DNA of 64,000 nucleotides, taken from an uncultured Bacilli bacterium. Lineage in GTDB: Bacteria; Bacillota_I; Bacilli_A; RF39; UBA660. This document shows, piece by piece, positions 12,508-51,830 of the stretch. The stretch's first letter is position 1; each line of letters starts with the position of its first letter. The notes below the pieces were generated by a model. The model saw nothing but the letters and a program-made list of their open reading frames with translations. It did no database searches and had not been told where the DNA came from. A program made the position numbers and the translations under genes. The DNA lies in the NCBI GenBank assembly GCA_947629205.1, contig CANRCV010000003.1, forward strand, positions 1,303 to 65,302, read 5' to 3'.

Positions 12508-14337
12508 ATGCAAGCAATTATGTTAGCAGCTGGAATGGGGAAAAGACTAGGAAAATATACAAAAGATAATACAAAATGTATGTTAGAAATTAATGGCAAA
12601 ACATTAATTGAAAGAGCAATTGAAGCTCTAATTGACTCCGGGGGGGGGGTTACAAAGTTAATAATTGTTACTGGATATAAAGGAGAAAATTTAAAAAAAT
12701 TTTTATTAGAAGAATGTAAAAATGAAAAAATAAAACAACTACCTTTGGAATTTATTGATAATCCAGAATATAATAAAACTAATAATATATATTCTTTGTA
12801 TTTAGCAAAAGAAGCATTAGAAAAAGATGATACAATTCTTTTAGAATCTGATTTAATCTATGATGGAAAACTTATTAAAAAGTTAATAGAATCTCCTGAG
12901 AAAAATTTGGTTTCTGTTGCTAAATATAAACAATGGATGGATGGAACCGTTATTAAAGTTGATGATCAACAAAATGTAATTGAATTTATTGAAAAGAAAA
13001 ATTTTAATTATGAAGAAATAGAAAATTATTATAAAACGGTTAATATTTATAAATTAAGTAAAGAATTTTCCCATCAAGTTTTTATTCCTTTTTTAAAAAG
13101 TTATATTCAAGCCTATGGTAATAATGAGTACTATGAATTAGTATTAAAAATTATTGCCCATTTATCCCGTAGTCAATTAAAAGCATTGGATGTATCAAAC
13201 ATTCTTTGGTATGAGATAGATGATGCACAAGATTATGATATTGCTACTTGTATGTTTTCAAGCGGTAAAGAAAAACTAGAAAATTTTCAAAAACGATATG
13301 GTGGTTACTGGAGATTTGAAAATATATTAGATTATTGCTATTTAGTAAATCCTTATTATCCACCAAAACAATTAATGGAGAAAATAAATTATTTTTCCAA
13401 CAATTTAATTACACAATATCCTTCTGGTCAAAAAATTGAATGTATTAATGCAAGTCGTTTATTTAATGTAGATGAAAATTATTTATGTGTTGGGAATGGA
13501 GCTGCTGAATTAATTAATATTTTAGGAAATATTTTAAAAGGAAAAATGTATGTTCCAAAAACAGCATTTAATGAATATATTCGTTGTTTTAAAAATAATG
13601 AATTTACTTTATTTGATATGGAAAAAAATAATTTTCAATATGATTTACAAGATATTAAGAAAAATATCTCTTTGAATGAGATTATTTGTTTAGTAAATCC
13701 TGATAATCCTTCCGGAACATTTTTATCTTTTGAAGAAATAATTTCTATTTTAGAACAATGTAAAAAAGAAAATAAAATAGTTATTTTTGATGAATCATTT
13801 ATTGATTTTGTTAATCCAAATAAAAGATATACTTTATTACAAAATGAAATTTTAGAAAAATATCAAAATTTAATTGTAATTAAAAGTATTAGTAAATCTT
13901 ATGGCATTCCTGGTTTAAGATTAGGTATTTTGGCAACAAGCAATCTATCATTAATGGAAGAAATAAAAAGAAATATTTCGATATGGAATATTAATTCTTA
14001 TGGAGAATATTTCTTACAAATTGCTAATCTTTATAGCAAAGAATATATAAAATCTTGTGATAAAATTGCTATAGAAAGAGATCGCTTTATGGAAGAGTTA
14101 TCTAAAATTAATGGTGTAATTGTTTATCCATCTGAAGCAAATTATGTTTTGTGTAAATTAAAAAATTATAACTCAACAAAATTAGCCATTCAATTGTTAG
14201 ATCAAAATATTTTTATTAAAGATTTAAGAACAAAAAATGCATTTAATGATAAAGATTACATTCGACTTGCCATTAGAACAAAAGAAGAAAATGATGTTTT
14301 GGTTCGTGAAATCAAAAAATCTTTAAAGGGTGAGTAG
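12508..14337 (+). CDS. bifunctional LicC-like nucleotidyltransferase (N-term) / class I-II PLP-dependent aminotransferase or decarboxylase (HisC/CobD-like, C-term); contains an in-frame G10 tract
   Basis: N-terminal MQAIMLAAGMGKRLG matches the NTP-transferase G-rich loop. The C-terminal half has the PLP-lysine context SKSYGIPGLRLGIL. The tract at 12640-12649 encodes GGG. Confidence 0.7.
   Translation: MQAIMLAAGMGKRLGKYTKDNTKCMLEINGKTLIERAIEALIDSGGGVTKLIIVTGYKGENLKKFLLEECKNEKIKQLPLEFIDNPEYNKTNNIYSLYLAKEALEKDDTILLESDLIYDGKLIKKLIESPEKNLVSVAKYKQWMDGTVIKVDDQQNVIEFIEKKNFNYEEIENYYKTVNIYKLSKEFSHQVFIPFLKSYIQAYGNNEYYELVLKIIAHLSRSQLKALDVSNILWYEIDDAQDYDIATCMFSSGKEKLENFQKRYGGYWRFENILDYCYLVNPYYPPKQLMEKINYFSNNLITQYPSGQKIECINASRLFNVDENYLCVGNGAAELINILGNILKGKMYVPKTAFNEYIRCFKNNEFTLFDMEKNNFQYDLQDIKKNISLNEIICLVNPDNPSGTFLSFEEIISILEQCKKENKIVIFDESFIDFVNPNKRYTLLQNEILEKYQNLIVIKSISKSYGIPGLRLGILATSNLSLMEEIKRNISIWNINSYGEYFLQIANLYSKEYIKSCDKIAIERDRFMEELSKINGVIVYPSEANYVLCKLKNYNSTKLAIQLLDQNIFIKDLRTKNAFNDKDYIRLAIRTKEENDVLVREIKKSLKGE
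12640..12649 (+). repeat. homopolymeric G10 tract (simple sequence repeat) inside the nucleotidyltransferase domain coding region
   Basis: Counted directly: ...gactccGGGGGGGGGGttacaaag, translated DSGGGVTK, in frame. Confidence 0.9.
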
Positions 14338-15952
14338 TATGAAAAAATTAATTTATTCTTATATAATTACTTTTGCATTATGTTTTATGTTATTTTTATA
14401 TGAACCAATCATGATGTATGCTAATAATATTAATGATTTTTGGTTTGATTTAGGCATTGCCTTTTTTCCTTTCTTAAAATTATTTTTAGGTATTTTCATC
14501 ATAGGGGTCTTGTTATTAACTTTGCTTTATTTTTTGAATTCTAAATTATTAAAAAATAAAAATATTTTTTCTGTTTTAATTATTATTGAATTTATTTGCT
14601 TTTTAGCAACTTATATTCAAGGAAATTATTTAATTAAAGATTTACCCATTTTAGATGGTAGTGCAATTGCATGGTCTTCTTTTACTAAGGAAAATATTAT
14701 TACGCTTTTTGTTTGGCTTTTCATTATAATTCTTACAATTTTTTGTATTAAAAAAGTAAAATTAGAAAATACCTTAAAATATGCATCCTTTCTTTCTTTA
14801 GCGGTTTTTGCCATGCTTACAACCTCATTGATTTCTACTCTTATGACTACTGATGCATTAAAAAGTAAGGATGGCATTAATATTACTAATGAAAATTTAG
14901 ATACTATTTCTAACAATGATAATTTTTTAATCTTTTTAGTGGATGCAATAGATTCACAAACTTTTAATCAAATATTACAAGATAATGAGGATTATAAAAA
15001 GGTATTTGCAGATTTTACTTATTTTCCTGATACATTATCTGCATATCCATTTACAAGAGATTCTATTCCTTATATTTTATCTGGAATATGGAATAAAAAT
15101 GAACAAGAATTTAGTGACTATTCAAGTAATGCATTAAATAATTCACCATTTTTTGCAGAATTAACAAATAGAAACTATCAAATAAATTTATATGATGATG
15201 AACTAATTTGGAATGGTAAAGGTCATGATATATTGCAAAATATATCGTCAATAAAAAATTCAAATATTGATTTAACTAGCTTTTATAAACAAGAATTAAA
15301 ATATATTTTGTTTAAGTATTTACCATATAACTTAAAAAAATATTCAAGGATTGAATATATGAATTTTAATATGAGCATAGAAAAATTTAGATGGAATAAT
15401 GATTTAATTTATGAAAATTTAAAAGATAATCAAACTCTTCGTAAAGTGAATAAAAATCAATTTCAATTTGTGCATGCTGAAGGAGGACATGTACCATTTG
15501 ATTATGACAAAGATTTAAATAAGATTGAAAATGGTACATATGGTCAAAAAGTAGAAGCTTCTATTACCTTAATTAAAACTTATTTGGAACGTTTAAAAGA
15601 TAATAATAGTTATGATAATTCTAATATTATTATTATGGCTGACCATGGTTTTGCATTTGATTTGATCGATCCACGTTTCAATCCAATATTACTAATTAAA
15701 GGAAAAAATGAGCATCATGATTTAGAAATTTCAAATCTTCCTATTTCCTATGAAGATTTGCAATCTGCTTACATTGATTTATTAGATAATAAAAAAAGTG
15801 ATGAATTATTTGCAAATATTCCAGAAAAAAGAACTAGAAAACTGATATGGTATATATATGGAAGAGAAAACCATATGGTAGAATTTGAAACAAATGACAA
15901 AGCTTACGAATCGAATAAATATAAAGCAACAGGGAATATATATGATAGGTAG
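14330..15952 (+). CDS. LtaS/sulfatase (alkaline-phosphatase superfamily) membrane enzyme, phospho-headgroup transferase-like
   Basis: 5 N-terminal TM segments followed by an extracellular domain with LIFLVDAIDSQTF, HAEGGHVPFDYD and IIIMADHGFAF motifs. 8-nt overlap with the upstream gene. Confidence 0.65.
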   Translation: MSSMKKLIYSYIITFALCFMLFLYEPIMMYANNINDFWFDLGIAFFPFLKLFLGIFIIGVLLLTLLYFLNSKLLKNKNIFSVLIIIEFICFLATYIQGNYLIKDLPILDGSAIAWSSFTKENIITLFVWLFIIILTIFCIKKVKLENTLKYASFLSLAVFAMLTTSLISTLMTTDALKSKDGINITNENLDTISNNDNFLIFLVDAIDSQTFNQILQDNEDYKKVFADFTYFPDTLSAYPFTRDSIPYILSGIWNKNEQEFSDYSSNALNNSPFFAELTNRNYQINLYDDELIWNGKGHDILQNISSIKNSNIDLTSFYKQELKYILFKYLPYNLKKYSRIEYMNFNMSIEKFRWNNDLIYENLKDNQTLRKVNKNQFQFVHAEGGHVPFDYDKDLNKIENGTYGQKVEASITLIKTYLERLKDNNSYDNSNIIIMADHGFAFDLIDPRFNPILLIKGKNEHHDLEISNLPISYEDLQSAYIDLLDNKKSDELFANIPEKRTRKLIWYIYGRENHMVEFETNDKAYESNKYKATGNIYDR

Positions 15953-15960
15953 GTGCGAAT

Positions 15961-18024
15961 ATGTTTATAGTTGATATTTTAGGAAACTTAATGCGTATTT
16001 TTTATAATTTGTTTCATAATTATGGACTAGCCATTTTACTATTTACTTTGTTTAGTAAAATTATTTTGCTTCCTATATCTGTATGGGTACAAAAAAATTC
16101 TATAAAAATGGTAAAAATGCAACCCAGTATAAATCGAATTAAGATAAATTATTTTGGTGATAAAGATAAAATAGCAGAGGAAGAATCGATTTTATATCAT
16201 AAAGAAAAATATAATGCCTTTGCATCATTAATACCATTAATCATTCAAATTGGATTATTATTATGTTTAGTAGAAGTAATTAATCATCCTTTAACTTATC
16301 TTTTAAATACTCCAAAAGAAACAACTCAACAATTAACCAATATTATGGTTGAACAAAGAGGCTCAAATCCTGAATCTTCCTCTTTAGAAATTGAGGTTGT
16401 CAAAGAGATAAAAAAAGAGAATCAACAAAATATTTTTTCTACTGTTGAAAATCATGAAGCAATAGAAGAACAAGTCAAAAATTTAAACTTTAATTTTTTA
16501 GGATTTGATTTAACTTGGATTGCCGTTGTGGAACAACATTTATCTATTTGGGTACCAATACTTGCTGGATTAAGTGCTTTATTTATGTGCTTTGCTCAAA
16601 ATAAAATCAATGTTTTGCAACAAGAACAATCTAATTGGAATAAATATGGAATGCTTATTTTTTCTGTTGGATTATCTTTATATTTAGGTGCTTTTGTTCC
16701 AGCAGGTGTTGCTCTTTACTGGATTTATAGTAATTTATTTGCTGTTTTACAACAATGGCTTTTAAATTTATGGATTAACCCGAAAAAATATATAGATTAT
16801 AAAGAATTAGAAACAACAAATGAAGAATTAAAGGCATTAAAAGAAATTAAAAATAAAAATAAATTAACAAAAGAAGAAAGAAAAAAAGCAAAAAACGATT
16901 ATAAAAGATTTTTTAAAGTCGTTAATAAGCATTTGGTTTTCTATTCAGAAAGTAATGGCTTTTATAAATATTATAAGGGGATAATTGAATATTTATTAAA
17001 AAATACAAATATAGTTATTCATTATATTACAAGTGATTATCATGATCAAATATTTGATTTAGAAAAAGAAAACCACCAAATCAAAGCTTATTTTATTGAT
17101 GAAAAAAGATTAATTACTTTGATGATGAAAATAGATGCTGACGTAGTAGTAATGACTATGCCAGATTTACAAACCTATCATATTAAAAGAAGCTATTTGA
17201 GAAAAGATATTGAATATATTTATATTCCTCATGGAATGGATAGTTTAAATATGACTATGCGAACGGGTTCAATGAATTATTTCGATACTATTTATACTAC
17301 AGGACCTCATCAATATGATGAAGCTATCAAAACAAATGAATACTATCATTTGAATCGCAAAATTATTAAATGGGGCTATAGTTTACTTGATGATATGCTT
17401 AGTGAATATAAAAAAGAAAATAAGAATAAAACGAAGCAAATATTAATTGCTCCTTCTTGGCAAAAAGATAATATTATAGATTTATGTTTATCTAAAATTT
17501 TAGAGAAATTAAAAGATAAAAACTATGATTGTTATATTAGACCTCATCCACAAGAAATAAGAAGGAAAAAAGATAAATTTTTGCAAATGCAAGAAGAATA
17601 TAAAAAATATCCTAATATTCATTTTGAATTAGATTTTTCAAAAAATAGTACGGTATTTAATGCAGATTTACTTATTACAGATTGGTCTGGAATTGCTTTT
17701 GAATATGCTTTTACAACGAAAAAACCGGTTGTATTTATTGATACTCCAATGAAAGTAATGAATCCAGAATATAAAAATATTAAAGTAGAGCCTTTTAATA
17801 TATGGGCAAGAAAAGAATTAGGAGAGATTGTTAAAGTAGAAGAAATAAATACTATTGACCAAAAAATAGATTATATTATAAATCATTATAAAGAATATCA
17901 AGCAAAAATTAATAAATTAACAAAAGAATCTACTTATAATTTAGGTATAAGTGGTAAAGTTGGTGCAGAATATATTATTGAAACTATACAAAAGAAAATA
18001 GAAGAAAGAAGGAATGAAAAATGA
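15961..18024 (+). CDS. fusion protein: YidC/Oxa1-like membrane insertase domain (N-term, ~280 aa) + CDP-glycerol glycerophosphotransferase (TagF/TagB family) domain (C-term)
   Basis: NYGLAILLFTLFSKIILLPI...KMQP...YHKEKYNAFASLIPLIIQ...LYWIYSNLF parallels SpoIIIJ/YidC. The C-terminal part has the TagF-family IAPSWQKDN and ITDWSGIAFEYAF...KPVVFIDTP motifs. Confidence 0.65.
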   Translation: MFIVDILGNLMRIFYNLFHNYGLAILLFTLFSKIILLPISVWVQKNSIKMVKMQPSINRIKINYFGDKDKIAEEESILYHKEKYNAFASLIPLIIQIGLLLCLVEVINHPLTYLLNTPKETTQQLTNIMVEQRGSNPESSSLEIEVVKEIKKENQQNIFSTVENHEAIEEQVKNLNFNFLGFDLTWIAVVEQHLSIWVPILAGLSALFMCFAQNKINVLQQEQSNWNKYGMLIFSVGLSLYLGAFVPAGVALYWIYSNLFAVLQQWLLNLWINPKKYIDYKELETTNEELKALKEIKNKNKLTKEERKKAKNDYKRFFKVVNKHLVFYSESNGFYKYYKGIIEYLLKNTNIVIHYITSDYHDQIFDLEKENHQIKAYFIDEKRLITLMMKIDADVVVMTMPDLQTYHIKRSYLRKDIEYIYIPHGMDSLNMTMRTGSMNYFDTIYTTGPHQYDEAIKTNEYYHLNRKIIKWGYSLLDDMLSEYKKENKNKTKQILIAPSWQKDNIIDLCLSKILEKLKDKNYDCYIRPHPQEIRRKKDKFLQMQEEYKKYPNIHFELDFSKNSTVFNADLLITDWSGIAFEYAFTTKKPVVFIDTPMKVMNPEYKNIKVEPFNIWARKELGEIVKVEEINTIDQKIDYIINHYKEYQAKINKLTKESTYNLGISGKVGAEYIIETIQKKIEERRNEK

Positions 18025-18293
18025 AAAAAATGGTAAAAGAAATTTTATTTGTAGTAGTGTTTGGAGTAAGTTTTGCATTTTTATTTAGTTTAAATGTAAA
18101 TGCTTATATTGATCCATCGGTTATGACTTATGCTATTCAAGCAGTAGCTGGTATTGTGATTGCAGTTGGAGCAGTAATAGGTATTTACTTTCGTAAAGCA
18201 AAAAAGAAGATTAGTAAGAAATTAGGAATTGATGAAAATAAAAATAAAGAAATAGAAACTGATGAAATTGTTGTAAAAAATGACAAAAAATAA
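18021..18293 (+). CDS. small membrane protein (one TM, Lys-rich tail)
   Basis: 90-aa ORF overlapping the upstream stop by 4 nt. Hydrophobic core followed by a charged tail. Confidence 0.4.
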   Translation: MKKMVKEILFVVVFGVSFAFLFSLNVNAYIDPSVMTYAIQAVAGIVIAVGAVIGIYFRKAKKKISKKLGIDENKNKEIETDEIVVKNDKK

Positions 18294-18300
18294 TATAGAA

Positions 18301-18327
18301 AAAGGATGTTCTTATGCATCTTTTTTT
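18301..18327. terminator. putative rho-independent terminator after the small membrane-protein gene
   Basis: aaaaaggatgttcttatgcatcttttttt: short gatg/catc stem flanked by an A-run and a T7 run. The stem is weak. Confidence 0.4.
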
Positions 18328-18378
18328 CATTAGTATATACAATGGGAATTTCGAACAAATAATTCAATAGATTAAATG

Positions 18379-18407
18379 CTTGATTTTCACCATTTTTTAC
18401 TTTATAA
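18379..18407 (+). promoter_or_regulatory. sigma70-type promoter of the AbiE operon (TTGATT - 17 bp - TATAAT), followed by SD AAGAGGTG
   Basis: ttgattttcaccattttttactttataat read directly. The SD sits 6-7 nt before the ATG at about 18428. Coordinates are +/-1. Confidence 0.55.
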
Positions 18408-18427
18408 TGGTAAAAAGAGGTGAAAAT

Positions 18428-19018
18428 ATGATAATTACCAATACAATTTTTAAAAATAATAATCAACAATATAGGAATCAAAATAATAAATTAACAAGGG
18501 AAGTAAAAGCAAATAAGTTGTATAAAATTATAAATGGGTTATATGAAACAGATCCAAATACACCAGGCTATTTACTTGCTGGAAGTATTTATGGTCCATC
18601 TTATATTTCTTTTGAATATGCTCTTTCCTTTTATGGTCTAATTCCAGAAAGAGTAACTGTGATTACAAATGCTACTTTTGATAAGAAAAAGAAAAAAGAG
18701 TATCATACCTCATTTGGTGTTTTTACCTATAGGGATGTTCCTAAAGAGGTTTATGCCCAAGAAATTCTTTTAAAAGTAGAAAAAAATTATTCTTATCAAA
18801 TTGCAACTCCAGAAAAAGCCTTATGTGATAAGTTATATACTTTATCTCCGCTTCATAATTATAAGAATTTAGAAATAATGCTTTTTCAAGATTTACGTAT
18901 TGATGAAGAAGAATTTAATAAACTAGATGGAAATAAAATAAAAACACTAAGCCATTTCTATCATTCAACAAATATAAATTTATTAGCAAACTATATGAGG
19001 AGAAATAAACATGAATAA
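18428..19018 (+). CDS. AbiEi-family antitoxin-like transcriptional regulator (type IV TA / abortive infection)
   Basis: The track ORF begins at an upstream TTG. The ATG with a strong SD is the likely start. The C-terminal region (GYLLAGSIYGPSYISFEYALSFYGLIPE...ATPEKALCDKLY) resembles AbiEi/COG5340. 8-nt overlap with the AbiEii gene. Confidence 0.55.
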   Translation: MIITNTIFKNNNQQYRNQNNKLTREVKANKLYKIINGLYETDPNTPGYLLAGSIYGPSYISFEYALSFYGLIPERVTVITNATFDKKKKKEYHTSFGVFTYRDVPKEVYAQEILLKVEKNYSYQIATPEKALCDKLYTLSPLHNYKNLEIMLFQDLRIDEEEFNKLDGNKIKTLSHFYHSTNINLLANYMRRNKHE

Positions 19019-19871: not shown

Positions 19872-19890
19872 TATTGCATCTGCTTGTTGA

Positions 19891-19925: not shown

Positions 19926-19989
19926 CTTCCTTTTCTATTAAGTGTTATAATAGCAAGTAAGAGTAATAAAAAAGATAAGTGGGTGTCAT

Positions 19990-26606: not shown

Positions 26607-26608
26607 AT

Positions 26609-43484: not shown

Positions 43485-43508
43485 ATTTTAGATAAGGAGG
43501 ATTAAATA

Positions 43509-44618: not shown

Positions 44619-44646
44619 TTAAAAAGTAAATAGAGTAGGTGAAAGT

Positions 44647-45585
44647 ATGCTTAAAAAAATATTTAATAAAATATTCCAAATGATAAAAGAGTATTTTATT
44701 AATTTAAAGTATTTTGGTTTTAAAATAGCAAATTTAAATTTTTTATGTGAATTTTCAATGATTCCATTTTTACAAAATAGAATGGATTCATTACATCAAA
44801 AAAGGTATAAATATATAAATCATTATTTAGTGACTAATTTTGATTATTTGATTGATAAATATCGTCATAAAACTATGATAACTCAAAAAGGTGAAAAAAT
44901 CATTTGGTGTTTTTGGTATCAAGGCTTTGATAGTGCTCCTTTATTAGTTCAAAAATGTATAGAAAGTATTAAAAAAAATGCTGGTGAATATCAAGTTATT
45001 TTATTAACAAAAGAAAATTATCAATCTTATATAAAAATACCTCAATTTATTTTAGATAAATTAGAAAATAAAACTATTACTCTTACACATTTTTCGGATA
45101 TTTTAAGAGCGGGATTATTAAAGGAACATGGCGGTATTTGGGTTGATGCTACAATGTATTTTACTAAAAATATATTTAAAGAGTTTGACAACAAAATATT
45201 TAATAGTACTATTTTAGATGAAGAAAGCAACTTACATTGTACAGGCTTTTTTATGGGAGGTTGTCCTAATAATTTATTTGATTTTTTGTATGAGTTTTTT
45301 TTAGAATATCACAAAAAAAATAAATATCTTATTAATTATTTCTTAATTGATTATATTTTAAATATTGCTTATGATAATTTAGAAAATTGTAGAAAAATTA
45401 TGGATTTAGAAACGATTGAAAATAAAAACATGTATCTTTTAACATCAAAATTTTCTTTAGAATACAATAAATTGGAATATAAAAATATAATAAATAGCGC
45501 TCCATATTTTAAATTAAATTATAAACATCATTATAATAAAAACATAAATGGAAAAATAACGAATTATGGTTATTTTATGAAATAA
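44647..45585 (+). CDS. DXD-motif sugar-binding glycosyltransferase (GT32/capsular polysaccharide synthesis protein family)
   Basis: FSDILRAGLLKEHGGIWVDATMYF matches the Gly_transf_sug / Caps_synth consensus. Confidence 0.6.
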   Translation: MLKKIFNKIFQMIKEYFINLKYFGFKIANLNFLCEFSMIPFLQNRMDSLHQKRYKYINHYLVTNFDYLIDKYRHKTMITQKGEKIIWCFWYQGFDSAPLLVQKCIESIKKNAGEYQVILLTKENYQSYIKIPQFILDKLENKTITLTHFSDILRAGLLKEHGGIWVDATMYFTKNIFKEFDNKIFNSTILDEESNLHCTGFFMGGCPNNLFDFLYEFFLEYHKKNKYLINYFLIDYILNIAYDNLENCRKIMDLETIENKNMYLLTSKFSLEYNKLEYKNIINSAPYFKLNYKHHYNKNINGKITNYGYFMK

Positions 45586-45697
45586 AATAAAAAAAGGAAT
45601 GCCAAACAAATAGACTTTAATTCGTTTTTTTGATACAATGTTTAAAAGAATAAAGATGAAATGTTAAAATGTATTAGGAAGGAATAAGTGGATTAAA

Positions 45698-46819
45698 ATG
45701 AAAAAAAATAGCAAATTATTATTGTCCATTATTTGTCCTATTTATAATGGTGAAAAAGTTGTTGGAAATTTAATTGAATCTTTAGAAAATCAAGAATACA
45801 AAGACTATGAATTGATATTGATAAATGATGGATCAGAAGATAATACATGGGATGTCATTCAAAATTATGCCAAACAATATAGTAACATTGTTTTAATAAA
45901 TAAAAAAAATACGGGCGTTGGAGATACTAGAAACGAAGGACTAAAAATTGCCAAAGGAAAATATATTGCATTTGCTGATGCAGATGATACTTATACAATA
46001 GATTTTTTTGAAAAAATAATTCCAGAAATTAAAAAGGAAGATTTTGAAATGCTTGTTTTTAATGCAAATGTAATGAATCACGAAAAGTATTTATATGCTG
46101 AAATTTCTGAAAAATATTCTAGTGGTTCTTTTATTGAAAAACATGGAGTAGAAAAATATTTACAAGGTGAATTTTGTTATAGAATTGGAAATGTGCCTTG
46201 GAATAAAATATACTTATCTAAAATTATAAAAGAAAATAATATTTGGTTTGAAAAAGACAAAAAAACAGGAGAAGATTTGATATTTAATATTTGCTATGTA
46301 TCTAAAATTGAAAAATATAAATATTTAAATATTAAACTTTACAATTATATGCTAAATATGATTGTAAATAAAAATAGAAATTATTTTGAAAACTGTTTAG
46401 AAGAAAATTTAAAATATTATGAATTATTAGAAAAAATATGTAAAACTGAAAATATAAAAACGCAATATTTATCTTTATTTTTTCTAAGGAGATTTCCAGG
46501 TATTGTACAAAATGAAGTTAATAATAAAGATTACTATCAAGGTAAACTAAATATAAAAAAATACTTATGCAATGAAAAAATGAAAAAAGTTTTTACTAAT
46601 ATAAATTTACGAAATATAGATTTAAAATTATTTATTTGTTATCTATTTTATAAATTAAAAATTTATAATTTTTACTATTGTATAAAATGGAAAATAGCTC
46701 ATAAAATTGATCGGGGGGGGGGCTATAGACTAGATTTTAATTTCCTTAATACTGAAATAAATAATATTCAATATTTTTTTAAAAAGACTTTAATACCTAT
46801 ATACTTTTTGAAAGAATAA
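45698..46819 (+). CDS. GT2-family glycosyltransferase, paralog 1; contains an in-frame G10 tract near the C-terminus
   Basis: LSIICPIYNGEKVV...NDGSEDNT GT2 signature. The tract at 46713-46722 encodes DRGGGYRL. Confidence 0.7.
   Translation: MKKNSKLLLSIICPIYNGEKVVGNLIESLENQEYKDYELILINDGSEDNTWDVIQNYAKQYSNIVLINKKNTGVGDTRNEGLKIAKGKYIAFADADDTYTIDFFEKIIPEIKKEDFEMLVFNANVMNHEKYLYAEISEKYSSGSFIEKHGVEKYLQGEFCYRIGNVPWNKIYLSKIIKENNIWFEKDKKTGEDLIFNICYVSKIEKYKYLNIKLYNYMLNMIVNKNRNYFENCLEENLKYYELLEKICKTENIKTQYLSLFFLRRFPGIVQNEVNNKDYYQGKLNIKKYLCNEKMKKVFTNINLRNIDLKLFICYLFYKLKIYNFYYCIKWKIAHKIDRGGGYRLDFNFLNTEINNIQYFFKKTLIPIYFLKE
46713..46722 (+). repeat. homopolymeric G10 tract in GT2 paralog 1
   Basis: attgatcGGGGGGGGGGctataga counted directly. 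Confidence 0.9.
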
Positions 46820-46855
46820 GAAAAAGTATAAAAAGTAAAAGAAAGGATTTTTAAT

Positions 46856-47881
46856 ATGAAAAAAAATAGTGAAATATTATTATCCATTATTTGCCCAATT
46901 TATAATGGTGAAAAGGTAGTTGGGAATTTAATAGAGTCTTTAGAAAATCAAGAATACAAAGACTATGAATTAGTATTAGTAAATGATGGCTCAGAAGATA
47001 ATACATTAAAAGTATTGAATGAATATTCTAAAAAATATCCTAATATTATAGTTGTTGATAAACCACATACTGGATTATGTGATACTCGAAATGTAGGTGT
47101 TGAGCATTCACATGGAAAATATCTTACCATAGGAGATTGTGATGATTATTATAGTGCAGATTTTTTTGAAAAAATAATTCCAATAATCCAAGAAGGAGGA
47201 TTTGAATTATTAATCTTTAATGCGTATGTAATGAATTATGATAAATTTATGCACTATTTAATTCCAGATAAATATAAAAGTGGTTATTTTGAAGAAAAAA
47301 ATGGTGTTTATAAGTATTTAAGAGGGCAATTTGGACATCAAATTGCTAATAATACATGGAATAAAATATATCCTAGAGAAATTATAGATAAATATAAATT
47401 TAAATATTCAGTTGAAAATCATGGGGAAGATTTGTTATATCATATTCTATATACATCTAAAATAACCAAATATAGATATTTTAATGAAAAACTGTATTAT
47501 TATCAGTTAAATATGAATCCATTAACAACAAGCAGTTATCGTGAAAATGAAGTTAAGGATGTGCTTGACTATTATGAACCAATTAAAAAAATTTGTGTGA
47601 ATAGTCAACTTGAAAAGTGGGAGGAATATTTAAGTTTATTTTTCTTAAGAAGATTACCAATTATCGTTTTAAATGAAACAAATTGTAACGATTATAACAA
47701 GGGAAAAGAAAACATAGAATCATTTTTAAACAATAAAATAATTTTATCTTTGTTTAAAAAAATTAAGTTTAAGTATTTTGATTTTAAATTATTTATCAGT
47801 TTTTTATTATATAAATTAAAATTATACAAATTAGTCTATATTGTATTATGGAAGAAAAGACATAAAAAGAGGAATCATTAA
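46856..47881 (+). CDS. GT2-family glycosyltransferase, paralog 2 (5' ~150 nt nearly identical to paralog 1, 3' part divergent, no G tract)
   Basis: Same N-terminal 50 aa as 45698 with only conservative changes. The protein ends before the region that carries the tract in paralog 1. Confidence 0.7.
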   Translation: MKKNSEILLSIICPIYNGEKVVGNLIESLENQEYKDYELVLVNDGSEDNTLKVLNEYSKKYPNIIVVDKPHTGLCDTRNVGVEHSHGKYLTIGDCDDYYSADFFEKIIPIIQEGGFELLIFNAYVMNYDKFMHYLIPDKYKSGYFEEKNGVYKYLRGQFGHQIANNTWNKIYPREIIDKYKFKYSVENHGEDLLYHILYTSKITKYRYFNEKLYYYQLNMNPLTTSSYRENEVKDVLDYYEPIKKICVNSQLEKWEEYLSLFFLRRLPIIVLNETNCNDYNKGKENIESFLNNKIILSLFKKIKFKYFDFKLFISFLLYKLKLYKLVYIVLWKKRHKKRNH

Positions 47882-47884
47882 AAA

Positions 47885-49006
47885 ATGAGTACTACTGAAA
47901 AAAAGCGTAATTCAAATTTAGAATTATTAAGAATTATTAGTATAATTTTAATTATTGCTCACCACTATGCTGGGCATGGTTTTGTTATTGAAAATATGCC
48001 ATATTCGTTCAATCAATATTTAATTGGTTTTTTAGTATTAGGTGGGAAATTAGGAGTCGTTTGTTTTATTTTAATTTCTGGATTTTTTATGTGTGAAACA
48101 AAATTTTCTATTAAAAAATTAATTAAATTAATAGGTGAGGCATGGTTTTATTTACTTGTAATAGGAATATTATTTAATACAATTTTAACCCCAACTATTC
48201 CTATTGATTTTACAGTAATATTAAAATCAACCATTCCAATTATATATGATCAAAATTGGTTTATAACAGATTATATAATGCTAATGATAATTTCACCAGT
48301 ATTAAATATTATCATTAAAAATATTAGCAAAGAATCATATCAAAAAATGCTTATCATAGGATTTATTTTATATTCAGTTTTACCTATATTCATTTTTGCA
48401 AGTCTTAATAATACAAGTTTTGTTGGGTTTATTTATTTATATTTTGTAGCAGGGTATATGAGAAAATTTTTACAAGTTCAAAATTCTCCTAAAAGATATT
48501 TTTTAAAAGCTTCGATAATTAATTTTATGGTTATATTATCAAGTATTTTGTTTATATTTTTAGGTCATAAATTCAATTTAACTATTTTTATAGTTAATAA
48601 TGCCTATTTTAGTTCTTTAAATAGTCCATTTACTTTGTTAATAGGAATTGAACTATTTATATTCTTCTTAAAATTAAAACCCTTTACAAGTAAAATTATT
48701 AATAAAATTGCTAGTACAACTTTAGGAATTTATTTAATTCATGATAATTTTTTACTACGTCCATACTTGTGGGGGGGGGGTATATTAAATAATTTAAATT
48801 ATGTTAATTCTCCATTTTTATTTTTACATGCTATTATTTCAATAATAGGAGTATTTATTGTATGTGTTATTATTGATCTAATTAGACAAGAAACAGTAGA
48901 AAAGGTTTATTTGAAAATTGTAGATAAATTAATTTTATTTTATCAAAAAAAGAATTTAAATATATATAAAAAAATTTGGTATTATATTAGTAAAATAATA
49001 GATTAA
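47885..49006 (+). CDS. acyltransferase family 3 membrane O-acyltransferase, paralog B; contains an in-frame G10 tract
   Basis: Collinear with 43509-44618, including the LWGGGIL tract context and the ...IDLIRQETVEKVYLKIVDKLILFYQKKNLN tail. Confidence 0.65.
   Translation: MSTTEKKRNSNLELLRIISIILIIAHHYAGHGFVIENMPYSFNQYLIGFLVLGGKLGVVCFILISGFFMCETKFSIKKLIKLIGEAWFYLLVIGILFNTILTPTIPIDFTVILKSTIPIIYDQNWFITDYIMLMIISPVLNIIIKNISKESYQKMLIIGFILYSVLPIFIFASLNNTSFVGFIYLYFVAGYMRKFLQVQNSPKRYFLKASIINFMVILSSILFIFLGHKFNLTIFIVNNAYFSSLNSPFTLLIGIELFIFFLKLKPFTSKIINKIASTTLGIYLIHDNFLLRPYLWGGGILNNLNYVNSPFLFLHAIISIIGVFIVCVIIDLIRQETVEKVYLKIVDKLILFYQKKNLNIYKKIWYYISKIID
48771..48780 (+). repeat. homopolymeric G10 tract in acyltransferase-3 paralog B
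   Basis: acttgtGGGGGGGGGGtatatta counted directly. Confidence 0.9.
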
Positions 49007-49179
49007 ATGTTTATATTTTTGAAGGCAAATAATTTAAAATCAAATCTAAATGAAAATTAGCAAGTTTGAGTTTAAATTAATTATTTGCCTTTTATTTTAT
49101 GCAACAAAATGTTATAATTTATTATATAGTGTTTATATAGAAAAAACAAAATAATAAATTTTATATTAGGGAGGGTTAA

Positions 49180-50142
49180 ATGAAATTTGAACCTATTTTA
49201 AGCGTAATTATAATCTCATATAAACAAGAAAAATATATTCGAGAAGCCATAGAAAGCGTTTTGAGCCAAAAAACAGAATACAAATATGAATTACTTTTAG
49301 CTGATGATTGTTCGCCAGATAAAACGCTGGAAATTATGGAAGAATATGCAACAAAGTATCCCAAAATAATTAAACTTTTAAAAAGAGAAAAAAATTTAGG
49401 AGCTAATAATAATTTATTAGATGCATATTCAAAATGTAAAGGTAAATATGTTACCTTTTTAGAAGGTGATGATTATTGGTGCGATAAAAATAAAATCCAA
49501 AAACAAATTGATTTTTTAGAAAAACACACAGAATATATTGGAGTTTCGCATACTCAAGAAGGAAGAAAAAACAATGTTGTAGTAGGGTATTTTCCTAAAA
49601 AATTAAATGAAGATATGATTATTGATGGATTAGATGATTTAATTAAAAATGAAAAGACTTTTTCATTTTCATCTACTATTCATAAAAACTTATATTTAAA
49701 TGAAAAATGGAAAAAAGATATTATTTATTTACATAGCTTGGATAGTACTATTAGTGATTCTCAAATGTGCGATTACTTATGTTTTATTGGTAAAATATAT
49801 GTGATGAATGAGGGAATGATGGTATATAGAATTAGAAATAATGATGGAAATTCAAATTTTAATTCAAGTCATAAAATAAATGAAATTCAATTACGATATT
49901 TAAAAATATATTTAGAAGAAGAAAAATTTTATAATGAAAAATATAGTTTTTATAACAAAATAAAAGAACGATATACTTTAGGAATTGTTTATAATTTATT
50001 ACATGGAAATTTTAAAGAAATAAAGGACTTTAAAAGATTATGCCCTAAAAAATATCGTTTAAGAATAAATTTAGTTTTTCCAATTACTTGTTGTAAAATT
50101 TTATGGAGAAGATTTATTAAAAATCGAGGTGAAAAAAAATGA
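49180..50142 (+). CDS. GT2-family glycosyltransferase
   Basis: LSVIIISYKQEKYI...LLADDCSPDKT...EGDDYW. Confidence 0.75.
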   Translation: MKFEPILSVIIISYKQEKYIREAIESVLSQKTEYKYELLLADDCSPDKTLEIMEEYATKYPKIIKLLKREKNLGANNNLLDAYSKCKGKYVTFLEGDDYWCDKNKIQKQIDFLEKHTEYIGVSHTQEGRKNNVVVGYFPKKLNEDMIIDGLDDLIKNEKTFSFSSTIHKNLYLNEKWKKDIIYLHSLDSTISDSQMCDYLCFIGKIYVMNEGMMVYRIRNNDGNSNFNSSHKINEIQLRYLKIYLEEEKFYNEKYSFYNKIKERYTLGIVYNLLHGNFKEIKDFKRLCPKKYRLRINLVFPITCCKILWRRFIKNRGEKK

Positions 50143-50852
50143 AATTAGGAATTATGCAGCCATATTTTTTCCCATACATTGGTTATTGGCAATTAATTAA
50201 TGCAGTTGACAAATATATTATATATGATGATGTTAACTATATTAAAGGGGGATGGATTAATCGTAATCGTATTTTAGTCAATGGGAATCCAAGTTATTTT
50301 TCTTTACAATTAGATGGAGCTAGTCCAAATAAAAAAATTAATGAGATTAAATTAAATAGTAATGCAGTGTGGAAGAAAAAATTAATAAATTCTTTGCAGA
50401 TGAGTTATAGTAAAGCACCTTTTTATAATGAAGTATTTCCCATAATACAAGATATTATATTATATTCAGAAAATAATTTAGCAAAATATTTAGAAAATTC
50501 ATTAAGAAAATTATGTGCGTTTTTAGATATTAATACTGAAATTATTGTTTCTTCTACTTTACAAAAAAATAATGACTTAAAAGGCAAAGATAAAGTTATA
50601 CATATTTGTGAAATTTTAGATGCTAAAGAATACATAAATGCAATTGGTGGTCAAGATATGTATGATAGTAAAACATTTTTGGAACATGGAATAAAATTAA
50701 GTTTTATTGAAACAAATATTATTCCATATACTCAATTTAAAAATGACTTTGTACCCTATTTATCTATAATTGATTTATTAATGTTTAATGGAAAAGAAAA
50801 GGTAAAAGAATATTTAAATGATTATAAATTAATAAAAAATAGTAAGGAGTAA
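50139..50852 (+). CDS. WbqC-like family protein (O-antigen/amino-sugar pathway accessory protein)
   Basis: N-terminus MKLGIMQPYFFPYIGYWQLI matches the WbqC-like family consensus start. Confidence 0.65.
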   Translation: MKLGIMQPYFFPYIGYWQLINAVDKYIIYDDVNYIKGGWINRNRILVNGNPSYFSLQLDGASPNKKINEIKLNSNAVWKKKLINSLQMSYSKAPFYNEVFPIIQDIILYSENNLAKYLENSLRKLCAFLDINTEIIVSSTLQKNNDLKGKDKVIHICEILDAKEYINAIGGQDMYDSKTFLEHGIKLSFIETNIIPYTQFKNDFVPYLSIIDLLMFNGKEKVKEYLNDYKLIKNSKE

Positions 50853-50853
50853 A

Positions 50854-51830
50854 ATGAAAGAAATTGGTGGATTTTTAGAATTAGATCTTTATAAAGATAG
50901 AAATAAAAAATTTAAAAATAATTTATTATTATTTAATAGTTGTCGTAATGCATTGGCTTATATAATTAAAGTAAAGAATATAAAAAAAATGGCTGTGCCC
51001 TATTATTTGTGTGATTCAATTGTAAATTTATTACAAAAAAATAATATAGATATAACTTTCTATCATATTAAAATGGATTTTACTCCTGAGAATAATATTA
51101 AATTAAGAACTGGTGAATATCTTTTTGTAGTAAATTACTATGGTCAATTAACGAAAAAAATGCAAGGCAAATTAAAATCACAATATAAAAATATAATTTT
51201 AGATAATACGCAAGCTTTTTTTGATAAGCCTTTAAAAAATGTTGATACTCTTTATTCTTTTCGTAAATTTTTTGGAGTCCCCGACGGGGGGGGGTATCTA
51301 CGAATGATGCAAGTTACTATAATCAATTAAAGGTTGATAAATCTAATAATCGTATGTCAGCTTTACTTGGCAGATTTGAAGAAAATGCAGCAGCTTTTTA
51401 TACAGTTTTTCAAAATTTAGAAGAAAATTTTGAGAATATGCCTATGTTAAAAATGTCAAAGTTAACTAATAATCTTTTAAATGCAATTGATTTTTGTAAA
51501 GTAAGAACTATTAGAACTAAAAATTTTAACTTTTTATATAAAAATTTAAAGAATAAAAATATTTTGAAATTAAAAAAAGTTAAAGGTGCTTATATGTACC
51601 CATTATATTTAGAAGATGCTGTAGAATTAAAAAAATTTTTATTAGAAAATAAAATATATATTCCTATTTTATGGCCTAATGTTTTAAATATAGTTTCAAA
51701 AGATTCTATTGAATATAAATATGTGCATAATATTTTACCTTTACCTTGTGATCAAAGATATAGTAAAACAGATATGAAATACATTTGTGATAAAATAATT
51801 GAATTTGAAAAAAGGACAAGAAAGAAGTGA
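50854..51830 (+). CDS. DegT-like (fold-type I PLP enzyme-like) sugar-modifying protein, split into two ORFs at a G9 tract (phase-OFF as sequenced)
   Basis: ORFs 50854-51330 and 51354-51830. NSCRNALAYII...VPYYLCDS resembles the DegT N-terminal block. Hand translation shows the +1 frame after the tract runs stop-free into the second ORF. Confidence 0.4.
51286..51294 (+). repeat. homopolymeric G9 tract separating the two halves of the DegT-like gene
   Basis: ccccgacGGGGGGGGGtatcta counted directly. Confidence 0.9.

What the first reader, a model, noticed from the sequence alone, without database searches (positions are those of the whole stretch)
12640..51294. Eight long poly-G/C tracts (G9-G11) inside glycan-biosynthesis genes of a ~25% GC genome: a multi-gene phase-variable surface-polysaccharide locus
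I counted eight homopolymeric G (or C) runs of 9-11 nt, at 12640, 34969, 40542, 41557, 44392, 46713, 48771 and 51286. All eight sit inside coding sequence of glycosyltransferase, acyltransferase, MBOAT, nucleotidyltransferase or DegT-like genes. I found no comparable tract in the flanking housekeeping genes. In DNA this AT-rich the per-base frequency of G is about 0.13, so a G10 is expected about 1e-4 times in 64 kb by chance. Six tracts keep the frame and encode Gly-Gly-Gly. Two interrupt their genes exactly at the tract. Such hypermutable simple sequence repeats switch genes ON and OFF by slipped-strand mispairing. This is established for LOS, capsule and flagellin-glycosylation loci of Campylobacter jejuni, Neisseria and Haemophilus. 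It is not a recognised feature of Gram-positive teichoic-acid or capsule-type loci. Eight independently switching genes could yield up to 2^8 surface glycoforms. That would matter for phage receptor variation and immune evasion.
Basis: partly seen in the sequence, partly recalled or inferred. Interest (0 to 1): 0.9.

Follow-up and report, generated by a model that had tools for sequence, protein, structure and literature searches.

The report
Poly-G switches in cell-wall glycan genes
An uncultured, very AT-rich Gram-positive bacterium carries eight slippage-prone runs of 9-11 G's inside genes that decorate its cell-wall sugar polymer, a Campylobacter-style set of random ON/OFF switches that I did not find described as a multi-gene set in this phylum.

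Summary
The window has eight G runs (one G9, six G10, one G11), no G6-G8 run and no C run above 5. About 0.0015-0.012 runs of G>=9 are expected by chance. All eight lie inside glycan-decoration genes of a ~50 kb wall-glycopolymer locus in a 24.7% GC Firmicute: three Acyl_transf_3 genes, an MBOAT, a GT8, a GT2, a cytidylyltransferase/PLP-decarboxylase fusion and a DegT-fold protein. Six are in frame. Two are broken at the tract, and G10 restores both.

Independent assemblies show different states. The MBOAT tract is C10 (intact) in one assembly and C11 (broken) in two, with identical flanks near the tract. The GT8 tract region is 4 nt shorter (broken) in another. Diverged orthologues (72-78% nucleotide identity, 75% amino-acid identity for T1) keep a tract at the same codon, sometimes in the opposite phase. 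More distant homologues lack it.

This is slipped-strand phase variation of the known kind, in a new host and target. I found no multi-gene poly-G set described in Firmicutes. Switching rates and glycan phenotypes are untested, and the variant contigs have only ~2-4x coverage.

The parts
12640..12649 (+). T1: G10 tract, codons 45-47 (Gly-Gly-Gly) of gene 12508-14337; in frame (ON)
   Evidence: L098 (99.7% identical strain) also has G10. The 75%-identical orthologue in L002 has G10 at the same codon. More distant orthologues have a single Gly and are 2 residues shorter.
12508..14337 (+). T1 gene: LicC/PntC-like cytidylyltransferase fused to a Ser/Thr-phosphate-decarboxylase-like PLP domain (609 aa). 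Predicted to make an activated phospho-aminoalcohol for polymer decoration (inference).
   Evidence: Pfam NTP_transferase plus Aminotran_1_2. PDB relatives 1jyk, 6pd1 (N-terminal domain) and 6oux, 1lc5 (C-terminal domain). NCBIfam CobD and HisC models match below their cut-offs.
34969..34979 (-). T2: G11 on the + strand, i.e. C11 on the coding strand (Pro-Pro-Pro); out of frame (OFF)
   Evidence: L082 has C11 and L083 has C10 (intact 401-aa product P0121), with 100% identical sequence on both sides of the tract.
34602..35862 (-). T2 gene: MBOAT (DltB/AlgI-type membrane O-acyltransferase), split into a 300-aa ORF (34960-35862) and a downstream frame (34602-34979). G10 or G13 gives 419-420 aa.
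   Evidence: Repair in silico. Homologues at 66-73% identity read P-x-P or x-P-K instead of P-P-P.
40542..40551 (+). T3: G10 tract, Gly-Gly-Gly at about residues 221-223 of gene 39883-40896; ON
   Evidence: A ~97% identical strain fragment (L085) also has G10, but that contig may be chimeric.
39883..40896 (+). T3 gene: Acyl_transf_3 membrane O-acyltransferase (337 aa)
   Evidence: Pfam PF01757, 2.2e-18.
41557..41566 (+). T4: G10 tract, codons 213-215 of gene 40921-41940; ON
   Evidence: L084 is identical over 1.9 kb except that the tract region is 4 nt shorter, giving 217-aa and 113-aa products. Orthologue L099 (78% nucleotide identity) has G10 at the same site, where the ON length is G9, so it is OFF. 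The 39 tract-less homologues aligned are 1-2 residues shorter at this point.
40921..41940 (+). T4 gene: family-8 glycosyltransferase (339 aa)
   Evidence: Pfam Glyco_transf_8, 5.2e-24.
44392..44401 (+). T5: G10 tract (last two bases of the Trp codon plus Gly-Gly-Gly, residues 296-298) in gene 43509-44618; ON
   Evidence: Same structural position as T7 in the paralogue.
43509..44618 (+). T5 gene: Acyl_transf_3 O-acyltransferase (369 aa), paralogue of T7 (57% aa identity)
46713..46722 (+). T6: G10 tract, Gly-Gly-Gly at residues 340-342 of 373, 31 codons before the stop; ON. The OFF state would only replace or truncate the C-terminal tail.
   Evidence: L001 has the same G10.
45698..46819 (+). T6 gene: family-2 glycosyltransferase (373 aa). 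Its neighbour 46856-47881 is a tract-less paralogue (72.7% nucleotide identity over ~670 nt).
48771..48780 (+). T7: G10 tract (Trp plus Gly-Gly-Gly, residues 297-299) in gene 47885-49006; ON
   Evidence: L001 has the same G10. Homologue L095 (72% nucleotide identity) has G9 at the same site and is OFF. The 43 homologues that cover this site and lack the tract read LW-xx-[IL] and are one residue shorter.
47885..49006 (+). T7 gene: Acyl_transf_3 O-acyltransferase (373 aa)
   Evidence: Pfam PF01757, 3.3e-22.
51286..51294 (+). T8: G9 tract; out of frame (OFF). G10 or G7 restores a 325-326-aa frame.
   Evidence: The tract replaces the family's conserved D-G-A-Y with D-G-G-G just after a conserved Arg-Lys.
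50854..51830 (+). T8 gene: DegT/DnrJ/EryC1-fold protein of an unnamed ~320-aa family, split into 158-aa ORFs 50854-51330 and 51354-51830. It lies between a WbqC-like gene and a bona fide DegT gene.
   Evidence: No Pfam, NCBIfam or PDB sequence hit. AlphaFold model of the closest homologue has pLDDT 86. Foldseek top hits are all sugar aminotransferases, E=3e-11, probability 1.00. Neighbours are annotated.
3302..61657 (.). Surrounding wall-glycopolymer locus. The backbone genes carry no tract: LCP ligase with PASTA (3302-5389), TagO/WecA-like GT4 (8625-9701), YidC-TagF-like fusion (15961-18024), ABC-2 exporter pair (25106-26606), two LicD (37101-37916, 52938-53738), IspD/TarI-like (54081-54791), GtrA-GT2, DUF6056 and DUF2142 membrane proteins (57338-61657).
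   Evidence: Pfam scans.

Best explanation
The eight poly-G runs are hypermutable contingency repeats. During replication, slipped-strand mispairing adds or removes a G, which shifts the reading frame of the host gene. G10 gives the full-length enzyme (ON) for all eight genes in this window. With G9 or G11, translation stops within 0-13 codons of the tract (OFF). Each switch controls a non-essential decoration step of a Gram-positive cell-wall glycopolymer made by a TagO-initiated, ABC-exported, LCP-attached pathway. Four are O-acylation steps (three Acyl_transf_3, one MBOAT). Two are side-chain glycosylations (GT8, GT2). One supplies an activated phospho-aminoalcohol (cytidylyltransferase-decarboxylase fusion). 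One is a DegT-fold amino-sugar step. A clonal population therefore continuously produces cells with different surface glycoforms, on which phages, host immunity or other selection can act. Shown here: the tracts, their frame relations, their extreme excess, length differences between assemblies, conservation of tract position in diverged orthologues, and origin by expansion at Gly, Pro or Trp-Gly codons. Inferred: the switching rate, reversibility within a population, the chemical consequences and the selective agent.
For: (1) Excess and bimodality: 8 runs of G9-11 against 0.0015-0.012 expected, none at G6-8, and no excess of A/T runs. (2) Frame logic: six tracts are in frame, two are broken exactly at the tract, G10 restores both, and stops follow within 0-13 codons in the shifted frames. 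(3) Variation between assemblies: T2 is C11 in the window and L082 but C10 with an intact product in L083, with 100% identical sequence on both sides of the tract. The T4 region is 4 nt shorter and the gene split in L084, which is otherwise identical over 1.9 kb. (4) Conserved position with variable phase: the T1 orthologue in L002 (75% aa identity) has G10 at the same codon, although only 51/119 fourfold sites in conserved residues share a base and only 1 of 22 other conserved Gly codons is GGG in both. The T4 orthologue L099 (78% nt) has G10 where the ON length is G9. The T7 homologue L095 (72% nt) has G9 and is OFF, and a second G9 sits in its neighbouring acyltransferase gene. (5) The feature is at the DNA level, not the protein level: GGG is 6.8% of non-tract Gly codons, the three non-tract Gly-Gly-Gly tripeptides use mixed codons, and the - strand gene carries Pro-Pro-Pro. 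(6) The tracts are lineage-specific additions, absent from more distant homologues of T1, T2, T4, T5/T7 and T8, which are shorter there by 2 residues (T1), 1-2 (T4) and 1 (T5/T7). (7) The targets are decoration genes only, and the backbone genes have no tract. (8) The anatomy matches the Campylobacter reference: intragenic tracts, G on the coding strand in 7/8, lengths peaking at 9-10 (PMC6321876).
Against: No read-level data are available, so heterogeneity within one population and reversibility are not shown. The variant contigs have 2.0-3.9x coverage, where homopolymer miscalls are possible. The L084 difference (loss of T plus GGG) is not a clean one-unit slip. Whether this organism has mismatch repair, which would lower the switching rate, is unknown. 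The T6 tract lies only 31 codons from the stop, so its OFF state may not abolish activity. Only 64 kb of the genome was seen, so genome-wide restriction of tracts to glycan genes is untested. In this window 'G10 = ON' for the two broken genes has a 25% chance of arising by coincidence.
Confidence: 0.85

Rival explanations
1. The tracts are real and once switched, or arose by drift, but they are now effectively static. The organism has efficient mismatch repair, so G10 changes too rarely to act as a bet-hedging switch, and the two broken genes are ordinary pseudogenes in decay.
For: Switching rates were not measured. Firmicutes generally avoid SSRs and usually have MutS/MutL (PMC3315296; the MutS/MutL point is my own knowledge). 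A tract-independent split acyltransferase gene at 30812-31911 shows that gene decay does occur in this locus.
Against: Both broken genes are broken exactly at the tract, by one base, and are otherwise intact. The same strain has the intact T2 allele in another assembly. Tract position and length are held in orthologues whose synonymous sites are near saturation, which drift does not explain. Three of the four diverged tract-bearing relatives or variant contigs are in the opposite phase to the window.
Confidence: 0.07
2. The runs are conserved because the proteins need a flexible Gly-Gly-Gly (or Pro-Pro-Pro) loop. The homopolymer is a by-product, and the frameshifts are sequencing errors.
For: Six tracts are in frame and fall where homologues have variable, loop-like residues.
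Against: GGG is a rare Gly codon here (6.8%), and other Gly-Gly-Gly tripeptides use mixed codons. The run always extends beyond the three codons to 9-11 nt. The same DNA-strand feature encodes Pro-Pro-Pro in the - strand gene. Tract-less homologues function with other residues there. The frameshifts recur in independent assemblies (L082 matches the window; L095 and L099 are OFF).
Confidence: 0.03
3. The poly-G runs are sequencing or assembly artefacts, for example the no-signal-equals-G calls of two-colour Illumina chemistry.
For: Poly-G artefacts are common in such data (my own knowledge). All source contigs are short-read metagenome assemblies.
Against: The runs are short (9-11 nt), internal, flanked on both sides by colinear coding sequence, and mostly in frame. 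They are reproduced at the same sites in independent ENA assemblies from six accessions (L001, L082, L083, L084, L085, L095, L098, L099) and in a MAG from an unrelated study (L002, SRP222994). Only G on one strand is affected, and only in decoration genes.
Confidence: 0.02
4. The tracts act mainly at the RNA level, through transcriptional slippage or ribosomal frameshifting. Each gene would then yield a fixed mixture of full-length and truncated products instead of heritable ON/OFF states.
For: Long homopolymers can provoke transcriptional slippage (my own knowledge). This could partly rescue OFF alleles.
Against: Slippage is best documented for A/T runs, which are not enriched here. DNA-level length differences between assemblies are observed directly. 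This would modify the DNA switch, not replace it.
Confidence: 0.03

Closest known systems
Campylobacter jejuni/coli poly-G phasome (capsule, LOS and flagellin-glycosylation loci)
   Same: Both have intragenic mononucleotide G tracts of 9-11 nt, with G on the coding strand in most cases and lengths peaking at 9-10. Several occur per glycan locus, in glycan-modifying genes and not in backbone genes, and ON/OFF results from a frameshift (PMC6321876).
   Different: The host here is a Gram-positive, 24.7% GC Firmicute, not a Campylobacterota species. The target is a TagO/ABC/LCP-type wall glycopolymer, not LOS, CPS or flagellin. The tract-bearing genes are not orthologous, so the resemblance is convergent. 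The mismatch-repair status of this host is unknown.
Streptococcus pneumoniae serotype 15B/15C switch (wciZ capsule O-acetyltransferase) and S. aureus icaC
   Same: Both are Gram-positive cases with reversible slipped-strand mispairing inside a membrane O-acyltransferase gene that decorates a surface polysaccharide (PMC4432689). T2, T3, T5 and T7 are O-acyltransferases too.
   Different: Those are single switches per locus and use di- or tetranucleotide repeats (from memory: TA in wciZ, TTTA in icaC). Here there are eight mononucleotide G switches within 39 kb, including glycosyltransferase and precursor-synthesis genes.
Haemophilus influenzae and Neisseria LOS contingency loci (lic1, lgtA/C/G, pgtA)
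   Same: Several independently switching glycosyltransferase and decoration genes generate combinatorial surface glycoforms. Neisseria uses poly-G tracts, e.g. pgtA (PMC2193922).
   Different: They are Gram-negative pathogens that modify LOS or pilin glycans. H. influenzae mainly uses tetranucleotide repeats (PMC2651432).
Bacteroides and Clostridioides difficile invertible-promoter phase variation of surface structures
   Same: The functional outcome is the same: gut bacteria diversifying surface polysaccharides or surface proteins stochastically (PMC11868660).
   Different: The mechanism there is site-specific DNA inversion by recombinases, not repeat slippage. No invertase or inverted-repeat switch was sought or seen in this window.
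Treponema pallidum poly-G tracts (tpr genes)
   Same: Homopolymeric G tracts act as phase-variation elements outside the Proteobacteria (PMC7864442). Spirochaete relatives of the T1 gene also carry C11-C12 runs at the gene's end.
   Different: From memory, those tracts act mostly upstream of genes, at the transcriptional level, on outer-membrane proteins. They are not intragenic switches in glycan genes.

Membership tests
SSR-mediated (slipped-strand) phase-variable contingency locus | Repeat of a type and length known to be hypermutable (PhasomeIt cut-off poly-G/C >=7; >=8 shown experimentally to switch in C. jejuni) | tested here: met
   Eight runs of G9-G11. Criteria are from PMC6321876.
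SSR-mediated (slipped-strand) phase-variable contingency locus | The repeat lies inside a reading frame (or promoter), so a one-unit change turns expression ON or OFF | tested here: met
   All eight tracts are intragenic. Shifted frames stop within 0-13 codons. Two genes are broken at the tract and are restored by G10.
SSR-mediated (slipped-strand) phase-variable contingency locus | Repeats occur more often than chance allows | tested here: met
   8 observed against 0.0015-0.012 expected. There are no G6-8 runs and no excess of A/T runs. Related low-GC loci hold 1 run in 383 kb.
SSR-mediated (slipped-strand) phase-variable contingency locus | Tract length differs between isolates or samples of one strain while the flanking sequence is identical | tested here: met
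   T2 is C10 (L083) against C11 (window, L082), with identical sequence on both sides of the tract. The T4 region is 4 nt shorter in L084. Caveat: these contigs have ~2x coverage, and the T4 change is not a clean slip.
SSR-mediated (slipped-strand) phase-variable contingency locus | High-frequency, reversible switching within a clonal population | not testable with these tools
   This needs raw reads, amplicon sequencing or culture.
SSR-mediated (slipped-strand) phase-variable contingency locus | The switch changes a phenotype (surface glycan structure, phage or antibody sensitivity) | not testable with these tools
   The organism is uncultured. Function is inferred from domain families only.
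Campylobacter-type poly-G phasome | Many intragenic poly-G tracts, G on the coding strand, modal length 9-10, clustered in surface-glycan modification loci | tested here: met
   compared with PMC6321876. 7 of 8 tracts have G on the coding strand, and the mode is G10.
Campylobacter-type poly-G phasome | Host belongs to Campylobacterota, and the tract-bearing genes are orthologous to the Campylobacter core phasome | tested here: not met
   The flanks are Gram-positive (LCP with PASTA, TagF-like, dockerin). The nearest relatives are Clostridia or Bacilli MAGs. So it works like this family but is not a member.
Campylobacter-type poly-G phasome | Absence of MutS/MutL mismatch repair as the basis of high tract instability (my own knowledge) | not testable with these tools
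   Only 64 kb of the genome is available.
Gram-positive single-gene glycan O-acyltransferase SSR switches (wciZ, icaC) | Slippage-prone repeat inside a membrane O-acyltransferase gene of a surface-polysaccharide locus in a Gram-positive | tested here: met
   T3, T5 and T7 are Acyl_transf_3 and T2 is MBOAT. The precedent is described in PMC4432689.
Gram-positive single-gene glycan O-acyltransferase SSR switches (wciZ, icaC) | One di- or tetranucleotide repeat switch per locus | tested here: not met
   There are eight mononucleotide G tracts. No di-, tetra- or pentanucleotide array meets PV cut-offs.
ABC-transporter-dependent wall teichoic acid / secondary cell-wall polymer locus | TagO/WecA-family initiating transferase, ABC-2 exporter pair and LCP ligase | tested here: met
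   PF00953 (8625-9701), PF00005 plus PF01061 (25106-26606) and PF03816 (3302-5389).
ABC-transporter-dependent wall teichoic acid / secondary cell-wall polymer locus | Polyol-phosphate machinery (TagF-like polymerase, CDP-alcohol synthesis, LicD-type transferases) | tested here: met
   PF04464 at 35.8 bits (cut-off 22.1) in 15961-18024, IspD/TarI-like 54081-54791, and two LicD genes. The actual polymer chemistry is unknown.

The most novel reading that the evidence does not exclude
A previously unrecognised lineage of uncultured, extremely AT-rich and probably gut-associated Firmicutes has convergently evolved a Campylobacter-style multi-locus poly-G phasome devoted to decorating its wall glycopolymer. 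The tracts were built by expanding Gly, Pro or Trp-Gly codons in loops. In addition, the cytidylyltransferase-decarboxylase decoration gene (T1 family) has been put under poly-G/C control independently, at different positions, in several gut lineages (other Clostridia, termite-gut spirochaetes). This would be a case of multi-locus SSR phase variation outside classical pathogens, in a phylum reported to avoid SSRs.
Probability: 0.5. Interest if true: 0.7.

Novelty: new member of a known kind. Interest (0 to 1): 0.6.

Why it matters
Multi-locus repeat-driven phase variation is regarded as a hallmark of a few host-adapted, mostly Gram-negative pathogens. [quoted passage not shown] A systematic survey found that Firmicutes consistently avoid SSRs (PMC3315296). 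This locus is a concrete counter-example in an uncultured Firmicute, with eight switches in one wall-glycopolymer locus. Wall teichoic-acid-type polymers are the main phage receptors and major immune ligands of Gram-positives. Stochastic O-acylation, glycosylation and phospho-aminoalcohol switching would therefore directly shape phage host range and host recognition in the community where this organism lives. There is also a practical point for metagenomics: frameshifted 'pseudogenes' at G9-11 runs in MAGs may be OFF-phase genes, not errors.

Tried and rejected
(1) The JGI metagenome scan with T7 returned only 30-35% identical relatives without tracts, so it was uninformative for strain variation.
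(2) Naming the organism failed. Cluster look-ups returned no source names. SRP222994 is not in the literature library. Exact look-ups of TsaD, T1 and the Caps_synth protein were not on record. The closest species representative (L002) is labelled Muribaculaceae, which its 28.6% GC and Gram-positive gene content make implausible.
(3) The sigma-70 promoter and terminator scan of 34-53.9 kb matched shuffled expectation (207 against 195 promoter-like sites; 4 against 3 terminator-like), so operon structure could not be inferred.
(4) T8 against the neighbouring DegT gene by hhalign was colinear but weak (E=0.0096, probability 4%). A profile search of PDB sequences found nothing. The question was settled by structure prediction and Foldseek.
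(5) L085 was not used as evidence. It keeps G10 at T3, but its first 174 nt are unrelated (a Wzx-like ORF) and its coverage is 1.2x, so it may be chimeric.
(6) I considered that 'G10 = ON in all eight' might be significant. For the two OFF genes it has a 25% chance of arising by coincidence, and the L099 orthologue uses G9 as its ON length, so I draw no conclusion from it.
(7) I considered that the split Acyl_transf_3 gene at 30812-31911 might be a ninth switch. The frame break is not at a G run, so I rejected this.
(8) I looked for other repeat classes (di-, tetra-, pentanucleotide) as extra switches and found none that meet PV cut-offs.
(9) One literature search ('phasome' with Firmicute genera) was too loose to be useful.

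Full report
OBSERVATION. There is no C run longer than 5. The run-length histogram is sharply bimodal. G1-G5 runs number 6006, 1316, 134, 30 and 4. There are none at G6-G8, then 1, 6 and 1 at G9, G10 and G11. Expected runs of G>=9 are 0.0015 under base composition alone and at most 0.012 under a first-order Markov model. Long A or T runs are not enriched: A>=9 occurs 2 times against 7.4 expected and T>=9 occurs 2 times against 4.9. No other repeat class reaches the lengths used to call phase variation. In 382,726 bp of comparable low-GC loci from related species there is a single G/C>=8 run, and it is the orthologue of tract T1.

CONTEXT. Pfam scans show a cell-wall glycopolymer locus of about 50 kb, bounded by housekeeping genes (TsaD and an SDF symporter on the left, ScpA/ScpB on the right). 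It encodes an LCP ligase with a PASTA domain, a TagO/WecA-like initiating transferase, a YidC-TagF-like fusion, an ABC-2 exporter pair, two LicD proteins, an IspD/TarI-like cytidylyltransferase, GtrA-GT2, DUF6056 and DUF2142 membrane proteins, and many glycosyl- and acyltransferases. Together with a dockerin/SH3_3 protein, and with nearest relatives in Clostridia and Bacilli MAGs from animal guts, this identifies a Gram-positive Firmicute. I could not name the species. It appears only in one 65.6 kb NCBI/ENA MAG contig, a few low-coverage ENA assemblies and one Logan run.

THE EIGHT GENES. T1 (12508-14337) is a LicC/PntC-like cytidylyltransferase fused to a Ser/Thr-phosphate-decarboxylase-like PLP domain. 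T2 (34602-35862, - strand) is an MBOAT O-acyltransferase. T3, T5 and T7 are Acyl_transf_3 O-acyltransferases. T4 is a GT8 and T6 a GT2 glycosyltransferase. T8 (50854-51830) has no Pfam, NCBIfam or PDB sequence match. All eight are decoration or precursor genes. The backbone genes (initiation, export, ligation) carry no tract.

FRAME LOGIC. Six tracts are in frame and encode Gly-Gly-Gly. T2 (G11) and T8 (G9) are broken exactly at the tract, and G10 restores full-length proteins of 419 and 325 residues. In the shifted frames a stop follows within 0-13 codons. T1 switches at codon 45 of 609, so its OFF state is a null. T6 lies only 31 codons from the stop, so its OFF state may merely alter the C-terminal tail.

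VARIATION BETWEEN ASSEMBLIES. The large protein database held fragments of the same strain from other ENA assemblies. L083 (ERZ27249635) covers 3.3 kb of the window. It is 100% identical on both sides of the T2 tract but carries C10 and an intact 401-aa MBOAT, whereas the window and L082 (ERZ27249148) carry C11. L083 also has a separate in-frame indel about 480 nt from the tract (see noticed items). L084 (ERZ27249360) is identical over 1.9 kb except that the T4 tract region is 4 nt shorter, which splits the GT8 gene into 217-aa and 113-aa products. T1, T6 and T7 have the same length in the other fragments that cover them. These contigs have about 2x coverage, and the T4 difference (loss of T plus GGG) is not a clean one-unit slip. 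This is suggestive evidence, not proof.

CONSERVATION OF POSITION, NOT OF PHASE. The closest T1 orthologue is L002, from an unrelated study, at 75% amino-acid and 74% nucleotide identity. It has G10 at the same codon. Between the two genes only 51 of 119 fourfold-degenerate sites in conserved residues share a base, and only 1 of 22 other conserved Gly codons is GGG in both. Yet all three tract codons are GGG in both and the run length is identical. A T4 orthologue at 78% nucleotide identity (L099, 3.9x coverage) has G10 at the homologous site, but there the in-frame length is G9, so the gene is OFF. A T7 homologue at 72% identity (L095) has G9 and is OFF, and a further G9 sits in the adjacent acyltransferase gene at the same L-W-G-G position. 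More distant homologues of T1, T2, T4, T5/T7 and T8 lack the run. Relative to the tract-bearing genes they are shorter at that point by 2 residues (T1), 1-2 (T4) and 1 (T5/T7), and in T8 the tract replaces the conserved D-G-A-Y with D-G-G-G. The tracts therefore arose in this lineage by expansion at pre-existing Gly, Pro or Trp-Gly codons and have since been kept, while their phase drifts.

DNA-LEVEL FEATURE AND ARTEFACT EXCLUSION. GGG makes up only 6.8% of non-tract Gly codons. The three other Gly-Gly-Gly tripeptides in the window use mixed codons. The one - strand gene carries Pro-Pro-Pro, because the G run stays on the + strand. GC skew is positive across the window, so the + strand is probably the leading strand. 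The runs are short, internal, mostly in frame, and reproduced in assemblies from six ENA accessions and in a MAG from another project. That excludes two-colour poly-G artefacts.

MECHANISM. The best explanation (confidence 0.85) is classical slipped-strand phase variation. Replication slippage changes the tract by one G, switching each decoration enzyme ON or OFF independently and generating a mixed population of wall-glycopolymer glycoforms. Four switches govern O-acylation, two govern side-chain sugars, one governs a phospho-aminoalcohol substituent and one governs an amino-sugar step. The count of 2^8 combinations is an upper bound, because precursor and transferase steps are likely epistatic. 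The switching rate, reversibility, chemistry and selective agent (phage or host immunity) are inferred, not shown.

COMPARISON WITH WHAT IS KNOWN. [quoted passage not shown] The host and genes are unrelated, so this locus works like that system without being a member of it. Reversible slipped-strand switching is described for pneumococcal wciZ (15B/15C) and S. aureus icaC, both O-acyltransferases (PMC4432689). SSR switching is also known in group A streptococci, Gardnerella, mycobacteria and S. aureus. My searches found no description of a multi-gene poly-G set in a Firmicute wall-glycopolymer locus. The phylum is reported to avoid SSRs (PMC3315296). [quoted passage not shown] I therefore rate this a new member of a known kind, of moderate-to-high interest (0.6).

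LIMITS. There are no read-level data and only 64 kb of the genome. Mismatch-repair status, species name and habitat are unknown. The supporting contigs have low coverage.

Noticed in passing
L038:10736-10744 and 15384-15392; L065:9984-9994; L059:3276-3286; L060:7914-7925 and 1518-1528; L047:15474-15482; L013:21205-21218: More distant orthologues of the T1 gene family carry long G/C runs at different positions. A rabbit-gut Clostridia MAG has one at codon ~245. Another has one 6 nt upstream of the ATG. Two termite-gut spirochaete MAGs have one 11-19 nt past the end of the aligned region. Five of the nine runs of >=9 in 1.44 Mb of loci lie in or next to this gene, which suggests convergent recruitment of homopolymer switches to this decoration gene.
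   Followed up: partly
L095:10-18: A 1.4 kb contig from a related strain has two G9 tracts, one in each of two adjacent Acyl_transf_3-like genes, both at the conserved L-W-G-G position. The Trp codon (TGG) followed by Gly codons appears to seed these runs.
   Followed up: partly
window 35454-35537 vs L083:1016-1045: In L083, 84 nt of the MBOAT gene are replaced in frame by 30 unrelated nt. This removes the family-conserved VTYFPEIISGPISR motif. It is either a real deletion allele or a low-coverage assembly artefact.
   Followed up: partly
L085:1-174: A ~97% identical strain fragment keeps the T3 G10 tract, but the sequence from 27 nt upstream of the tract onwards is an unrelated Wzx-like ORF. 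This could be recombination near the tract or a chimeric contig at 1.2x coverage.
   Followed up: partly
window 30812-31911: Another Acyl_transf_3 gene is split into 115-aa and 261-aa ORFs by a frameshift near 31090-31126. The break is not at a G run and is probably an ordinary pseudogene or a T-run slip.
   Followed up: partly
window 18380-19871, 21051-22361, 23710-25041: An AbiEii-type toxin gene, with a possible upstream antitoxin, and two AAA_14/DUF4143 ATPase genes are embedded in the glycan locus.
   Followed up: no
window 20854-20945 and 23534-23657: Two intergenic 33-bp tandem arrays (2.8 copies at 100% match and 3.8 copies at 92%) lie just upstream of the two DUF4143 ATPase genes. Their consensus units differ but both begin AAAAAGT.
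   Followed up: no
window 40000-52000 vs flanks: GC content falls to 21-22% across the tract-rich block, against 26-30% at the window ends. Gene content differs between relatives: the T3 gene is absent next to the T4 orthologue in L099, and L002 joins the homologues of 56.4-60.1 kb directly to those of 12.0-18.3 kb. This points to a variable, recombining region.
   Followed up: partly
window 45698-46361 vs 46856-47516; 43509-44618 vs 47885-49006: There are recent paralogue pairs within the locus. T6 and the neighbouring tract-less GT2 share 72.7% nucleotide identity over ~670 nt. T5 and T7 share 57% amino-acid identity and have the tract at the same position.
   Followed up: partly
window, whole: All eight runs are G on the + strand, including the run in the one - strand gene. 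GC skew is positive throughout, so tract orientation may follow replication direction and not coding strand. Only one gene is informative on this point.
   Followed up: no
L002 (CAZIDI010000010.1): The closest species-representative contig is labelled 'uncultured Muribaculaceae'. It has 28.6% GC and Gram-positive wall-polymer genes 74% identical to the window, so it is probably mis-binned or mislabelled.
   Followed up: no
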